Assembly: GCA_965216875.1 (NCBI GenBank)
Contig: OZ244207.1
Span: forward strand, 7,392,001-7,456,000
Direction: 5' to 3'
From: Rubripirellula sp.
Lineage (GTDB): Bacteria; Planctomycetota; Planctomycetia; Pirellulales; Pirellulaceae
Length of the DNA stretch: 64,000 nt
A model generated the notes under the pieces. The model saw only the letters and a program-made list of their open reading frames with translations. It was not told the origin of the DNA and made no database searches. The position numbers and the translations under genes are program-made. Positions 1,160 through 6,413 of this stretch are shown piece by piece (within the stretch, counting starts at the first letter, position 1; each line of letters starts with the position of its first letter).

Positions 1160-2944
1160 TCACTTTGCGGCGGGCGCCGGTTGGCTTTCGCTATCGTCGT
1201 TGATCGGCTTGGGTGGCGACTTGAGATTGATCTCGAGGATCGTGTTGACCACATCGATCAGTTGGTCCAGGCGGAATGGCTTGTAGAGCACGCATTTGCG
1301 TGGAAGGCCCGCCTGGTGAGCCTTGACGATGGAGTGGCCGGGATCGTAGCCAAATCCGGTCATCAAAACCATTGGCACACGATCCATGATCTTTCCAAGG
1401 CGAAGCATCAGCTGATAGCCACTGTAATCGGGCAAGCTAATGTCACTGATGATCACGTCATAGCCGGTGGCTCCACCGCTGCCGCGAACCATCAGCACGG
1501 CTTCGTCGCCCTTGTGGGCCGTTTCGACGATACAGCCGTAACGTTCCAGCAGCGTGTGAGCGTCCTCTCGGACCTTTTCGTCGGCGTCGACCACGAGGAT
1601 GCGTTTGTCGCGCAACGAGGCTTGTTGGGGAGACTGAACGCCGGCCGGTACGGCTTCGAGTGGGGTCAGCTTTTGACCGACTTGCTGGATCGTTTGCTTG
1701 ATGTCTCTAGCGTTGTGCAAGATGCGGCGGATGCGATCGACCACGTCGGGGCTGTGTCCGATGTAGCCTTCCATGACGTTCACTGCGTCATTAAGGATCT
1801 CGTCAACCGGCATGGCGACCGCGCTGTGAATCGCGTCACAGCTCTGCTGGGCCGTGTTGGCTTTTTGTGCAACCAGTAGTTCGAGCGTGTTGAGCGCGAA
1901 CGCGATATCGCGAGCAAAGATTTCCAAGAACTGTAGGTCGCTGTCGCCAAAGGCTGACGGCTCGGGGCTTTCGACGTTGATCGTTCCGAGCACCTGGTCA
2001 TGCAAAATCAGTGGCACGGTCAGCGAACTCCGCGACGTTGCCACACCCGGGATGAACAAGGGGTCGTTGACGACGTCTTGGCACACGTAGCTCATGCCAC
2101 TGGCGGCCACATAGCCCGTGATGCCGTTGCCTTGTGGGTGAGCAAAGAGTTTGCGATCGCTCGCGTCTTGATCGATCCCAACGCTCAACAGCGGGACAAG
2201 GTTGCCAGTGTCGTGAGCGAGCAAGCGAATCTCGATCACTTCAAAATTGAGGAGATCACTGAGGTAGTGACGAATGTTCTCTTTCAAGAGGTCGATCCGC
2301 TCATCAACCTCCATCATGAAGATCTCGGAGGGACGCAGGTCGGCAAGTTCGCGTCCGGCTTGGTGAATCGCGGCGAGCTTCTGTTGTTGAAGAATCTCTT
2401 CGGTGATGTCGCCGACAGTGACGATGAGTTGGCGGCTGTGATCGGGTTGAACAATCGGTGCCGCGTGAATCTGGTAGTAGCGATTCTCGTGACTGACCAT
2501 GGTGCTGCCGGTCTGTTCCCCCGTCGCAAGTGCGGTGTGGAACGGACAGAAATCGGGACCCATGATTTCAGGGTTTCCGAGCAGCTCATAAAAGCTCATG
2601 CCAATCGGCGAGTCTTCGCCAAGCTGAGCCCACTGCAGCAGCTGGCGGTTTGCCCACAGCACGCGGTTGTCACTGTCCAGCAGTGCAGCTCCCTCGGGCA
2701 TGTCGCGAAGCATGACTCCGCTTTGAGCGACGCCGCGGAGTTCGGCCAGCTGAGGTAGCTGTTCGCGTGAGATCCAGACTCCAGCGATCGAAGGGTCAGA
2801 AAGCTCATCGACCACCGGTACGGAGGTATCGACAACGACCAAGTCGTTGTTTCGCAGCTCCTCAGGCAGAGAATCGGGCGATCCAACGCAAATGATTTTG
2901 CGCGGTTCTGTCGAGGACTGTGTTGCTTGCGGTGATCGATTCAT
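1160..2944 (-). CDS. PAS-GAF-(HisKA-like)-receiver signalling protein
   Basis: PAS (ALLDSDNRVLWAN, CPFH), GAF (GITGYVA...SSLTVPL...VLGTINVES), C-terminal REC (ILVVDAD, DVIISDISLPD, YKPF). Confidence 0.8.
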   Translation of the reverse strand: MNRSPQATQSSTEPRKIICVGSPDSLPEELRNNDLVVVDTSVPVVDELSDPSIAGVWISREQLPQLAELRGVAQSGVMLRDMPEGAALLDSDNRVLWANRQLLQWAQLGEDSPIGMSFYELLGNPEIMGPDFCPFHTALATGEQTGSTMVSHENRYYQIHAAPIVQPDHSRQLIVTVGDITEEILQQQKLAAIHQAGRELADLRPSEIFMMEVDERIDLLKENIRHYLSDLLNFEVIEIRLLAHDTGNLVPLLSVGIDQDASDRKLFAHPQGNGITGYVAASGMSYVCQDVVNDPLFIPGVATSRSSLTVPLILHDQVLGTINVESPEPSAFGDSDLQFLEIFARDIAFALNTLELLVAQKANTAQQSCDAIHSAVAMPVDEILNDAVNVMEGYIGHSPDVVDRIRRILHNARDIKQTIQQVGQKLTPLEAVPAGVQSPQQASLRDKRILVVDADEKVREDAHTLLERYGCIVETAHKGDEAVLMVRGSGGATGYDVIISDISLPDYSGYQLMLRLGKIMDRVPMVLMTGFGYDPGHSIVKAHQAGLPRKCVLYKPFRLDQLIDVVNTILEINLKSPPKPINDDSESQPAPAAK

Positions 2945-4180
2945 CGATCTTCTCCCACCACAACCCGCATGCGGTCAGTGTGTTGCCTTGTCCGGTCAAT
3001 CAAGCCCAATCGGTCTCAGTTGATTGGGGCTCCCAAACATCCCGTTCTAGCAGCCAGTCTTCAAACGGGAAGCCTGGCAAGTTTGATTCGGAATGCGTTT
3101 GACGTTGCAACTCACTTGGTTCTCGATGCCAATCGCCGATCGTCGGCGACGCGAGCTCTTTTCGCGGGTTGCCCACTTCCCACTTGGCATCATACGAACC
3201 AACAACGATTTGTCACACCGTGTTAACGCCTATTTGGTGAACTTCTTCCGTGCCTATCGGCTCCTCTCTGCCTTCATCATTACTACTAGAATGCAATCTG
3301 CGGTGATTTGTTCCTGGAAAACTGCCCTTGTGCGCGCTCTCTGGGCTGCGGTTCTCTGGGTCGCGCTAGTTCTCTGGGCTGCTTCGTTCCCTGCCGTGGG
3401 ACGGTCCTCCAACCAGCGCAACTCTCATCGTGCCTCAATCGCGTTTGCGCCAATGATTGAGTCCTCGCCACCCGCGACCGAATTCGCTTGATCGGTGCGA
3501 CGGTATGCGTCTTTCGGTATCGTTGGGCGTCTTCCGGGAATGCTGGGGTTTCTGTCGACCGATGGGCTGACATGCGCCCGATTGGCTGCCCAGGATGCTC
3601 TGTGCATCGCATCAGCACCGATCGCGGCCCCGTGTACCCGATCTCGGCCAGGCGATTCGTGTGGCTCACACCGAGCGGCTCCGTCTTGTTGCGTCCAGCG
3701 CGTGCTTGTTGCTTCCCACTCTTGCTTCAGGTCGTAGGGGCAACCAGGTGCGAATTCTGGTGGAAGCGTCGATCGCATGCACGACTCACGATGCGATCGT
3801 AGGTAAACTGGATGGCGTTGAGTGCATGGTTGAGTGCTCACTTTTCCAAGCCTCCCAGAGTGACGTCGTTGCGGTGATCCGTCAGGCTCCTCCTCCATGC
3901 TTCCGCTTAGCCGGTCCCCAAAGGTAGGGCAAGCTGCGCCATCTTATTGACCGCGTAGACGAGAGCCCAAAACCGCACGTTTTAACTGAAAAAATCGGCT
4001 ATCTGATTATTTGTTGAAATTGCGACGTTTGGTGAGAGCGAATCGTTGACACCATATCACCAACGTCTACATTTATCCGAACGTGGGGTGAATTCGCCCC
4101 ATCTTACGCAGCCGTTAAAAACTTCCTCGTATGTCTACTTATGTCTCACGGGCTGTGAGCAAATTGGAGGGTTGTCCTTG

Positions 4181-6310
4181 ATGAGAACACATGTATTAAC
4201 CAGCTTCCTCGGCTTGTGCGTTGCAGTGATGTTTGCTGCAAACGTTCAAGCAGGATCAGGATGCGGTGATTGCGGCGGCTGCGCGAGCGGTTCGCCATGC
4301 GAGACCGTTTCCGGCTGCGGCGGTTCAGACTGCGGTGGCTGCGGTACTGCGGACTGCGGTACCACCTACGAAACTCGGACCGTCATGCGTCCGCAGTACG
4401 TGACCGAGACCCGTATGGTCCCAACCACGACCTATCAAAAAGAAACTCGCACACGCACACGTACCGTTTGCAAGCGAGTGGCTCGAGTCGAAACCAAGAC
4501 TCAAACCTACACAGTGAATGTTCCTCAGACCAAGACACGCACCGAGACCTACAACGTCCAAGTTTGCGTGCCTTACACCACCGAGGAAAAGTACACGGTT
4601 CAAGTTCCCGTTAAGAGCGAGCGTGAAGAGACTTACCAAGTCTGCGTTCCTTACACCGAGGACGTCGAGCAAACCTACACCGTTTGCGTGCCAAAGACTT
4701 CGACCGTCACCCAAAACTACAAGGTCAGCGTTCCTTACACCGAAACGCAAACCTACACAGTTGCGGTCCCTTACACCGAGCAAGTCGAACAGCAATACAC
4801 CGTTCGCGTGCCAGTGAAGAAGTCGCGTGAGGAAACCTACAAAGTTCGCGTTCCTTACACCGAGCAAGTTGAACAGCACTACACCGTGCAAGTTCCTGTG
4901 AAGTCGACCAAGACGGTTGAGTACCAAGTCTGTGTTCCTTACACCGAGACGGTCACTCAAAACTACACCGTCAAGGTTCCTTACACCGAGACTCGTACTC
5001 AGAACTACACCGTTTCGGTTCCTTACACCGAAGACGTCGAGCAAAAGTACACCGTTTCGGTTCCTTACACCGAGGAAGTCGAACAGAAGTACACCGTGAA
5101 GGTTCCTTACACTGAAGAAGTGGAAGAGACCTACACCGTTCGCGTTCCTGTCAAGGAAACCAAGACCGGTACCCGTACTGTCACCAAGTGCGTTCCTGTG
5201 ACCACCATGCGTACGGTCACCAAGGACAAGGGCAGCTACGAATGCCAAGCGGTTGAAGTCAGCGGATCGGCATGCGGCGGATGTGCACCTGCTCCAGCTT
5301 GTGGCGGATGCGACACCGGTTGCGGTGGATGCGAAACCGTTGCTGACGCATGCGGTTGTGCTCCTAAGGTTGTTTACAAGCGAGTTTGGGTTCCAAACCT
5401 CGTGACCGAAGAAGTGCCTTGCACCACTTACGAGCGTCAAACGACTGAGGTTCCTTACACCTACACCGTTTGCAGCTACAACACCGAGACTCGTACTCGT
5501 AAGGTTCCTGTCACCAAGTGCCGAACCGAAGAGCGAACTCGTACCGTTAAGTGCACCAAGTACCGCACTGAAGAGCGCACCCGAACCTGCAAGGTTCAAA
5601 AGTGCCGCACCGAAGAGCGTACTCGTGAGTACCAAGTCACCTTGTGCCGCACTGAAGAGCGCACTCGTGAAGTACCTGTGACTCGCTATCGCAATGAAAC
5701 TCGCACCAAGGAAGTGCCTGTTTGCACCATGACCACCGAGCAACGCACTCGAATGGTCAACGTCTGCAAGTACCGCTGCGAAGACCGCACTCGCACCGTC
5801 AACTACTGCGAATGGGAAAACCAAACCCGCACTCGCACGGTTAACGTTTGCAAGACGCGTAACGAAGAGCGTACTCGCGAAGTCACCAAGTACCGCTGCG
5901 AAGATCGCACTCGCGAAGTTCCTGTGACCACCATGGTCCGCGAAACTCGCACTCGCACCGTGCCTGTGACCAAGACCAAGATGGAAACCCGCACTCGCAT
6001 GGTTCCTGTGACGACTTACAACACGGAAGAGCGTACTCGCACCGTGACTCGTCAACGCATGGAAACTCAAGAGCGTAGCCGCGAAGTTTCTTACACCGTT
6101 TGCGTTCCTGAAGAACGCACTCGCACCTACAACGTCACCGTGTACGACACCGTCAAGGAAGAAGTTCCTGAGGAGTACACCGTGTGCGTTCCAGTGCAAA
6201 CGATGAAAGAAGTTCAAGTTCGCGTCTGCAAGCCAGTGGCTGTTGAAGTCCAAGTTCCCGTTTCGGGATGCAACGGCTGTGCAACCGCTGACCCTTGTGC
6301 TTGCAAGTAA
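4181..6310 (+). CDS. Secreted 709-aa Thr/Val/Glu/Arg/Cys-rich mirror-repeat protein; predicted giant beta-hairpin
   Basis: ATG at 4181 with GGAGG at 4166-4170. Sec signal MRTHVLTSFLGLCVAVMFAANVQA. 14-aa VPYTE..YTV repeats, a central Cys-rich loop, then 14-aa RTEERTR repeats. Terminator directly downstream. Confidence 0.9.
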   Translation: MRTHVLTSFLGLCVAVMFAANVQAGSGCGDCGGCASGSPCETVSGCGGSDCGGCGTADCGTTYETRTVMRPQYVTETRMVPTTTYQKETRTRTRTVCKRVARVETKTQTYTVNVPQTKTRTETYNVQVCVPYTTEEKYTVQVPVKSEREETYQVCVPYTEDVEQTYTVCVPKTSTVTQNYKVSVPYTETQTYTVAVPYTEQVEQQYTVRVPVKKSREETYKVRVPYTEQVEQHYTVQVPVKSTKTVEYQVCVPYTETVTQNYTVKVPYTETRTQNYTVSVPYTEDVEQKYTVSVPYTEEVEQKYTVKVPYTEEVEETYTVRVPVKETKTGTRTVTKCVPVTTMRTVTKDKGSYECQAVEVSGSACGGCAPAPACGGCDTGCGGCETVADACGCAPKVVYKRVWVPNLVTEEVPCTTYERQTTEVPYTYTVCSYNTETRTRKVPVTKCRTEERTRTVKCTKYRTEERTRTCKVQKCRTEERTREYQVTLCRTEERTREVPVTRYRNETRTKEVPVCTMTTEQRTRMVNVCKYRCEDRTRTVNYCEWENQTRTRTVNVCKTRNEERTREVTKYRCEDRTREVPVTTMVRETRTRTVPVTKTKMETRTRMVPVTTYNTEERTRTVTRQRMETQERSREVSYTVCVPEERTRTYNVTVYDTVKEEVPEEYTVCVPVQTMKEVQVRVCKPVAVEVQVPVSGCNGCATADPCACK
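4361..5263 (+). repeat. N-arm: degenerate 42-nt (14-aa) tandem repeats, consensus VPYTExVExxYTVx
   Basis: Recurrent gttccttacaccga(g/a), mostly at 42-nt spacing or multiples of it. Confidence 0.9.
5363..6262 (+). repeat. C-arm: degenerate 42-nt (14-aa) tandem repeats, consensus (Y/C)RTEERTRxVPVTx
   Basis: Recurrent gaagagcg(c/t)actcg motifs at a 14-codon period. Confidence 0.9.
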
Positions 6311-6380
6311 TCTTGTGACTGCGATTCGTTTCGCTTGATCAGCCCGACGGGCCCGATAAGCGAAACAACAAAAAACGACG

Positions 6381-6413
6381 AAACCCCGAAGGCAAACGCC
6401 TTCGGGGTTTTTT
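6381..6413 (+). terminator. Intrinsic terminator
   Basis: aaaccccgaaggc-aaac-gccttcggggttt perfect stem followed by a T run, 70 nt after the stop. Confidence 0.9.

What the first reader, a model, noticed from the sequence alone, without database searches (positions are those of the whole stretch)
4181..6310. Secreted mirror-symmetric protein predicted to be one giant (~100 nm) beta-hairpin: candidate novel planctomycete fibre subunit
Seen: after a 24-aa signal peptide the chain parses as a 36-aa Cys/Gly cap, a 301-aa arm (4361-5263), a 33-aa Cys-rich loop (5264-5362), a 300-aa arm (5363-6262) and a 15-aa Cys cap. Both arms have a 14-aa period but different consensus: the N-arm is Glu-rich VPYTExVExxYTVx and the C-arm is Arg-rich (Y/C)RTEERTRxVPVTx. 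The mature chain has no Ile or Phe and only two Leu, so there is no globular hydrophobic core, and it is dominated by beta-formers (T, V, Y). Inference: the arms zip antiparallel into a two-stranded ribbon. About 300 residues at ~3.3 A each gives ~100 nm. Established: planctomycetes make stalks, holdfasts and fibres at crateriform structures whose subunits are poorly identified. I know of no characterised family matching this design, but could not search to confirm that.
Basis: partly seen in the sequence, partly recalled or inferred. Interest (0 to 1): 0.92.

Follow-up and report, generated by a model that had tools for sequence, protein, structure and literature searches.

The report
Giant hairpin planctomycete cell-wall protein
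This gene belongs to a known family of tough cell-wall proteins of planctomycete bacteria, and its sequence shows that the protein folds back on itself into one two-stranded ribbon about 100 nanometres long, which may be the strut from which these bacteria build a protein wall.

Summary
The ORF and its symmetric anatomy are real, but the family is known: Pfam YTV (PF07639, E 3.5e-49), reported as major SDS-resistant, Cys-rich wall proteins of Planctomycetia. Of 258 family members with four independently placed anchor motifs (382 examined), 254 have C-arm = N-arm + 2 across 26 lengths, while the loop varies from 20 to 174 aa. Covariation gives one anti-diagonal, i+j = 756, with ±2 flanks and no ±14 echoes. 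A pair potential trained on short members picks 756 first of 260 registers in all seven 40-residue blocks. AlphaFold2 gives the same register. About 298 pairs give roughly 98 nm. All arm prolines lie on one face, and Cys-Cys pairs are absent across the ribbon (0 of 25,338; 22-109 in controls), so arm thiols are probably kept for bonds between molecules. Best reading: a secreted strut of a disulfide-linked wall mesh rather than an appendage fibre. Assembly is inferred, not shown. I found no report of this fold in the papers searched.

The parts
4046..4073 (+). sigma70-type promoter-like site
   Evidence: 10 of 12 consensus matches; both boxes recur at the same place in the 8 orthologous upstream regions aligned. 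Not tested for function.
4106..4170 (+). conserved 5' leader motif and ribosome-binding site
   Evidence: Conserved blocks in 8 aligned leaders; a 7-bp pairing is predicted with no compensatory change; no Rfam family reaches its threshold.
4181..4252 (+). Sec-type signal peptide (residues 1-24)
   Evidence: Only hydrophobic stretch of the chain; 202 of 210 homologues with enough N-terminal sequence have one; cleavage site by eye.
4253..4366 (+). N-terminal Cys/Gly cap, predicted disordered
   Evidence: 8 Cys and 13 Gly in residues 25-60; pLDDT below 50.
4367..5260 (+). N strand of the ribbon (residues 63-360), 14-aa repeats; conserved head motif at residues 349-353
   Evidence: Pairs with residue 756 minus i; strand in the AlphaFold2 model.
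5261..5365 (+). Cys/Gly loop at the hairpin tip (residues 361-395)
   Evidence: 8 Cys; the distance between the inner anchors varies from 20 to 174 aa in the family; coil with low pLDDT.
5366..6259 (+). C strand of the ribbon (residues 396-693), Arg/Thr-rich 14-aa repeats; conserved Trp403
6260..6310 (+). C-terminal Cys cap and stop codon; lies beside the N cap in the folded hairpin
   Evidence: 4 Cys; position follows from register 756.
6380..6411 (+). intrinsic terminator-like hairpin followed by a T run
   Evidence: 14-pair stem; similar hairpin plus T run downstream of the 7 orthologues printed.

Best explanation
A Sec-exported YTV-family envelope protein that folds into one continuous two-stranded antiparallel beta-ribbon of about 298 residue pairs (about 95-100 nm), with residue i paired to residue 756 minus i. 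It has no hydrophobic core and is held by cross-strand pairs: Thr-Thr and Pro-Tyr on one face, Val-Glu, Tyr-Arg and Glu-Lys on the other. Prolines sit only at positions whose NH points outward, which blunts the edges against runaway sheet growth. Both ends carry flexible Cys/Gly knots (12 Cys in the two caps at one end, 8 in the loop at the other), and 23 more Cys lie along the arms, never opposite each other. Disulfides between molecules then tie the ribbons into the detergent-proof protein layer of the wall, as struts and nodes. Status of each step. Supported by computation here: fold and register (about 0.9). Taken from the literature on the family: wall location (about 0.75 for this gene). 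Inferred: intermolecular disulfide mesh and load-bearing role (about 0.55-0.6).
For: Arm lengths: C-arm minus N-arm = 2 in 233 of 237 four-anchor proteins (permuted pairing gives 22%) and in 21 of 21 held-out ones. On a tree of 235 tips arm length changes 56 times and the difference once (two outliers left out). Covariation: mean z 2.4-2.75 at i+j = 756 and 1.4-1.9 at 754 and 758 in both the inner and the outer block, about 0 at 742 and 770. Middle of 20 long members: 14 like-charge pairs at 756 against 72-102 at repeat-shifted registers. A potential trained on 213 short members ranks the expected register first in 20 of 20 long members and in 7 of 7 blocks of this protein. Arm prolines: 3969 of 3969 on one face, 456 of 456 in the held-out set (summed from its rows). 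Cys-Cys: 0 of 25,338 pairs at 756 and at 754, against 22-40 and 61-109 in phase-matched controls. AlphaFold2: strand boundaries sum to 756; a short member gives two unbroken 107-residue strands, mostly at pLDDT above 90. Literature (passages seen): YTV proteins are major constituents of SDS-boiled Gemmata walls (PMC5287468), the top two proteins of the Tuwongella wall preparation (PMC8567305; one is 73.6 kDa with a Sec signal, against 78 kDa here), and one is listed among the essential genes of Planctopirus (PMC10632474).
Against: AlphaFold2 confidence for this protein is low in the middle (mean pLDDT 57.7, pTM 0.24), and the model uses the same alignment signal as the covariation, so it is not independent. 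No second contact diagonal that would show how ribbons meet was found. One homologue, P0105, has an extra unpaired 14-mer (register shifts from 442 to 428); two differ by one residue and one is truncated. 124 of 382 sequences lacked one or more anchors (many are fragments or other subfamilies) and are not in the length count. No wall proteome exists for this organism, and I could not fetch the experimentally identified wall proteins to confirm that they belong to this subfamily. A clade of homologues (for example P0016, P0044) has few Cys in its caps and loop, as does L030, so disulfide knots are not universal. Peptidoglycan components have also been detected in planctomycete walls (PMC13450696).
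Confidence: 0.62

Rival explanations
1. Same ribbon, but it is the subunit of stalks, holdfast fibrils or the fibres of crateriform structures. Ribbons would bundle end to end outside the cell.
For: Shape suits a fibre; secreted. Crateriform structures survive in SDS-boiled walls (PMC5287468, passages), so fibre bases could co-purify. The Planctopirus stalk is made of twisted fibrils (PMC13450696, passage).
Against: Every published location I saw is the wall fraction. One YTV gene is listed as essential, which is unusual for an appendage. The gene stands alone between a PAS-GAF-receiver gene and an enoyl-CoA hydratase gene, with no pilus or secretion genes among the neighbours scanned. Present in 55 of 61 genomes of the class.
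Confidence: 0.15
2. The pairing is between chains: two extended molecules pair N-arm to C-arm (a domain-swapped dimer of about 200 nm, or an open polymer).
For: Covariation, length coupling and Cys avoidance cannot tell intra- from intermolecular pairs. Some alveolins are predicted to form their ribbon only as heterodimers (PMC12465100, passages).
Against: Members with only 20-24 residues between the inner anchors end in a short Asp/Gly/Pro/Cys turn. vWA proteins carry the same two repeat types in reversed order around a 5-residue turn, three times in tandem, each with a symmetric register. Both point to true hairpins.
Confidence: 0.12
3. Hairpins join side by side into a long beta-barrel tube or an extended sheet, like phage tail tubes or pore stems, for example as a conduit across the wide periplasm.
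For: The only structural neighbours are long hairpins of oligomeric barrels; the best is the phi29 collar/tail axis 6qz9, E 3.4e-4 but TM 0.10 and rmsd 13.7. The C strand has a 67-residue Pro-free stretch.
Against: Pro fills 14% and 11% of the outward-pointing positions of the two strands. No N-N, C-C or second N-C covariation diagonal (best z 0.8 or less). No transmembrane segment.
Confidence: 0.08
4. A metal or Fe-S binding protein, as the database label 'ferredoxin' on some homologues suggests; the Cys clusters would chelate metal.
For: 8 of the 120 hits listed are named ferredoxin; caps and loop hold CxxC-like motifs.
Against: No ferredoxin family in Pfam or NCBIfam. Loop length and Cys number vary freely. 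The protein is Sec-exported into an oxidising compartment. Metal binding as a side role is not excluded.
Confidence: 0.04

Closest known systems
YTV repeat proteins (Pfam PF07639), planctomycete cell-wall proteins
   Same: Sequence family (165 bits against a cut-off of 21), signal peptide, Cys richness, size close to Tuwongella GMBLW1_26360 (73.6 kDa), restriction to one class.
   Different: Nothing at family level; this is one of the longer members. Pfam models a 43-aa repeat. The papers I saw give no fold, no two-arm symmetry and no register; the hairpin architecture is what this analysis adds.
Alveolins, articulins and epiplastins (protist membrane skeleton; Pfam IMCp)
   Same: Val/Pro-rich repeats, long predicted beta-strands (PMC6212826), an AlphaFold-predicted twisted beta-ribbon made of two complementary strands, within one chain or between two (PMC12465100), and a shape-keeping role.
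   Different: They are cytoplasmic, with an Ile-rich heptad consensus; this protein is secreted, has 14-aa Thr/Tyr/Arg repeats, no Ile, and a mirror register fixed over about 300 residues. No IMCp match. Works-like analogy only.
Chlamydial cysteine-rich envelope proteins OmcA/OmcB (recalled, no call)
   Same: PVC bacteria with reduced peptidoglycan that stiffen the envelope with disulfide-linked protein.
   Different: No sequence match; not known to me as two-stranded ribbons.
Long beta-hairpins of oligomeric barrels (phi29 collar/tail axis 6qz9, beta-pore stems)
   Same: Long antiparallel hairpin; top Foldseek rows.
   Different: Alignments cover 196 columns at rmsd 13.7 and TM 0.10; those hairpins are far shorter, hang from globular domains and are stable only inside a barrel. 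No homology implied.

Membership tests
YTV cell-wall protein family (PF07639) | Pfam YTV repeats above the curated cut-off | tested here: met
   E 3.5e-49, 165 bits against 21, 15 stretches; 107 of 107 members of alignment A2 match at E 0.1 or better.
YTV cell-wall protein family (PF07639) | N-terminal Sec signal peptide | tested here: met
   Hydropathy test only; no dedicated predictor run.
YTV cell-wall protein family (PF07639) | Cysteine-rich | tested here: met
   43 Cys, 6.3% of the mature chain.
YTV cell-wall protein family (PF07639) | Confined to class Planctomycetia | tested here: met
   55 of 61 genomes of the window's class. In a phylum sample, 13 of 13 genomes of two families of that class, and single weak hits in 2 of the other 187 (kinship of 165 unlisted genomes not shown); 0 of 14 controls. 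Named relatives are Stieleria and Rubripirellula.
YTV cell-wall protein family (PF07639) | Recovered in SDS-resistant wall preparations | not testable with these tools
   Reported for homologues (PMC5287468, PMC8567305); no proteome for this organism.
Alveolin / articulin / epiplastin | IMCp domain or heptad alveolin repeats | tested here: not met
   No IMCp hit for this protein at E up to 1 or among the 25 of 26 families shown for 107 homologues; period is 14.
Alveolin / articulin / epiplastin | Cytoplasmic, in an organism that builds an epiplast | tested here: not met
   Signal peptide; bacterial host.
Alveolin / articulin / epiplastin | Low-complexity Val/Pro-rich medial domain with long beta-strands forming a two-stranded ribbon | tested here: met
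   supports 'works like', not membership.
Beta-barrel tube or pore-stem proteins | Structural match to a solved barrel subunit | tested here: inconclusive
   Best Foldseek TM 0.10-0.13; VIA-align best Z 2.5 among 48,161 chains.
Ferredoxin | Fer2/Fer4-type domain | tested here: not met
   No such family.

The most novel reading that the evidence does not exclude
YTV ribbons are the load-bearing strands of a protein sacculus that has taken over the job of peptidoglycan in budding planctomycetes. Each is a single-chain beta-ribbon whose length (about 40-130 nm across the family) is set in the gene by paired, mirror-image repeat gains in both arms, with an exposed thiol site on either strand but never both, and with Cys knots at both ends. 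Mesh size and wall stiffness would then be tuned by gene length, and the design would be a prokaryotic counterpart of the alveolin beta-ribbon skeleton.
Probability: 0.4. Interest if true: 0.85.

Novelty: new member of a known kind. Interest (0 to 1): 0.62.

Why it matters
What the planctomycete sacculus is made of is listed as an open question in a 2026 profile (PMC13450696, passage), and YTV proteins have been the main candidates since 2008 without any fold in the papers I could search. A residue-level model turns this into direct tests: rods of a length predicted for each species, a cross-link ladder at i+j = 756, DTT-sensitive intermolecular links, and one-arm against two-arm repeat deletions. 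An unsupported two-stranded ribbon of about 300 pairs also has no match among solved structures and would interest protein design.

Tried and rejected
Beta-solenoid or short hairpins within an arm: rejected; the lag-14 diagonal has z 0.16-0.25, the best intra-arm pair score is 5.2 against 252.9 between arms. Register slip by one repeat: no signal at 742 or 770. Intra-ribbon cross-strand disulfides: rejected. Global arm-against-arm charge attraction: rejected. A first regex anchor scan caught only 49 of 121 proteins with several mis-set anchors and was replaced by profiles. One search checked alignment A1 with a wrong offset; corrected, which shows that A1 keeps the register at the ends (over 90%) but only about 40-75% in the middle. 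No sequence match in PDB or NCBIfam. Fold searches gave only generic long-hairpin rows; a weak or missing match does not show a new fold. ESM Atlas returned YTV clusters and unnamed planctomycete clusters, with low recognition scores. Expression: no RNA holder listed; one run guessed to be RNA gave patchy contigs over this gene and its neighbours: uninformative. Leader RNA: no Rfam family and no compensatory changes. No complex prediction of two copies was obtained, so self-association is untested. Literature: searches found YTV only as a wall-protein motif; one search found nothing; nothing relevant; one search did not retrieve the source for non-hydrogen-bonded pair preferences, which is therefore recalled. 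Mahajan 2020 (PMC7533069) and Hieu 2008 were not seen; either, or supplementary file 5 of PMC10632474 (not searched), or public AlphaFold models, could already show the hairpin.

Full report
Observation. Window 4181-6310 (+) is one ORF of 709 aa. The charge description needs correcting: N-arm 34 Glu and net +2, C-arm 41 Glu and net +19. The gene looks like a stand-alone unit: a promoter-like site at 4046-4073 and a terminator-like hairpin at 6380-6411 (the region has 2 promoter-like and 7 terminator-like sites against 1.3 and 5.4 in shuffles, so the support is their recurrence in orthologues). It lies between a divergent PAS-GAF-receiver gene and an enoyl-CoA hydratase gene; one or both neighbours recur beside close orthologues. 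Named relatives at 58-64% identity are from Stieleria and Rubripirellula.

Family. The protein is a Pfam YTV member (PF07639, E 3.5e-49). From passages read: YTV proteins are major constituents of Gemmata walls isolated by boiling in 10% SDS (PMC5287468); the two top-scoring proteins of the Tuwongella wall preparation (PMC8567305, section 21; supplement rows give 73.6 and 39.3 kDa, both with Sec signal); first reported in Rhodopirellula walls (cited in PMC12673574 and PMC3343278; original not seen); restricted to Planctomycetia, with Plim_0937 among the essential genes (PMC10632474). My searches agree on range: 55 of 61 genomes of the class, only 2 weak single hits among 187 genomes outside two families of that class.

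Arm-length coupling. I collected homologues and placed four conserved anchors (here Pro71, Asp349, Trp403, Cys683), each as the best match of its own profile with no symmetry rule. Of 353 sequences (348 counted by the script plus 5 locus ORFs without anchors), 237 had all four; 233 have C-arm minus N-arm = 2, over 22 arm lengths from 98 to 372, while the loop ranges from 26 to 174. Random pairing of lengths gives 22%. The four exceptions: two differ by one residue, one is truncated, and P0105 carries one real unpaired repeat. Of 29 further ORFs, mostly from a class-wide sample, 21 had four anchors and all 21 obey the rule, adding four lengths and loops down to 20. On a tree of 235 tips arm length changes 56 times by parsimony, the difference once (tree noise may inflate the 56; the two large outliers were left out).

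Register. APC-corrected mutual information on 233 sequences (effective number about 135) peaks at i+j = 756 in both the tip block and the base block, flanked by 754 and 758, the signature of antiparallel strands; repeat-shifted registers are flat. No solenoid diagonal, intra-arm hairpin or parallel pairing exceeds z 0.8. For the middle, where the alignment is shallow, like charges are avoided at 756 and 758 in 20 long members (14 and 20 pairs against 60-102). A pair potential trained only on 213 short members ranks 756 first of 260 registers in each of seven 40-residue blocks, and the expected register first in 20 of 20 long members and 21 of 21 held-out ones. AlphaFold2 gives strands whose boundaries all sum to 756, with pLDDT 72-86 at base and tip and 40-56 in the middle, and two unbroken 107-residue strands at mostly above 90 for a short member. 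These models share the alignment signal and are not independent proof. At 3.2-3.4 A per residue (textbook value) 298 pairs give 95-101 nm; the family spans about 39-129 nm. Coiling would shorten this.

Anatomy of the ribbon. All 3969 arm prolines in 233 proteins fall on one face, together with Thr-Thr and Pro-Tyr pairs; the other face has Val-Glu, Val-Val, Arg-Val and Tyr-Arg pairs. Pro cannot donate a backbone hydrogen bond, so this face is the non-hydrogen-bonded one, and the prolines interrupt the outer edges (established knowledge; the pair preferences are recalled, one search did not find the source). Arm Cys are mostly on the Pro face (1743 of 2233) yet never face each other: 0 of 25,338 pairs at 756 and at 754, against 22-40 and 61-109 at registers shifted by whole repeats. 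Caps and loop hold 10-17% Cys and 12-22% Gly. I infer that thiols are kept free for partners outside the hairpin.

Hairpin or swapped dimer. Covariation cannot decide this. Short-turn members and vWA proteins with three tandem reversed-order hairpins around a 5-residue turn favour a true hairpin. Members without the conserved head motifs (L030, L037) still give one symmetric register, as does the Gln-rich paralogue of this genome; the Lys/Cys-rich paralogue gives 585-586 in 4 of 7 blocks.

How it most likely works. Export by Sec; zipping from the tip into a 100-nm ribbon; oxidation of cap, loop and arm thiols into links with other YTV ribbons, including the two paralogues; the result is an SDS-proof mesh in the wall. 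Fold and register are supported here, wall location comes from homologues, and the mesh is inference. Rivals are an appendage fibre (0.15), a swapped dimer (0.12), a barrel or sheet (0.08) and a metal-binding role (0.04).

Comparison. It is a member of the YTV family on every feature I could test. It resembles alveolins and epiplastins in working principle (long strands, PMC6212826; predicted twisted beta-ribbons from complementary strands, PMC12465100; passages only) but fails their membership tests. Thr-rich hydrophilic sequences are known to favour beta structure (PMC11936462, passages), though that paper's repeats formed solenoids. No solved structure matches by sequence or convincingly by fold.

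Novelty and verdict. The family-wide single-hairpin architecture, with mirror-coupled length and thiol avoidance, did not appear in searches; the two primary proteomic papers were not seen, and public AlphaFold models may already show the hairpin. Because sacculus composition is a stated open question (PMC13450696), the model makes it directly testable. Interest 0.62.

Noticed in passing
G000:C1:2947783-2949630 (+) and G000:C1:7542851-7544626 (-): Two further YTV paralogues in the same genome: one Lys/Cys-rich with 16-aa repeats and the same head motifs (register 585-586 in 4 of 7 blocks), one Gln-rich with a single register (453) in 4 of 6 blocks.
   Followed up: partly
G000:C1:5348441-5354500 (-): A Ser/Thr kinase with WD40-like repeats (read by eye) carries an inserted N-type/C-type YTV hairpin around a small domain, residues about 1147-1318.
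   Followed up: partly
P0027, P0110: vWA-domain proteins with three tandem short YTV hairpins in reversed order (C-type strand, tight turn, N-type strand); each turn in P0027 gives a symmetric register.
   Followed up: partly
window 4106-4170: Conserved 5' leader motif in 8 orthologues, with two alternative short pairings next to the ribosome-binding site; possible regulatory element; no Rfam match, no compensatory changes.
   Followed up: partly
P0105: A natural asymmetric member with one extra 14-mer in the N-arm; possibly an intermediate in length change or an assembly error.
   Followed up: yes
L030, L037: YTV hairpins lacking the conserved head motifs; L030 is nearly Cys-free yet keeps a single mirror register.
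   Followed up: partly
P0014, P0047, P0063, P0070, P0089, P0098: Several homologues are labelled 'ferredoxin' in NCBI, probably a misannotation from Cys motifs.
   Followed up: partly
window 1160-2944 (-): Divergent PAS-GAF-receiver gene whose position beside the YTV gene is kept in 10 of the orthologous loci (one further hit lies on the other flank); could share regulation.
   Followed up: no
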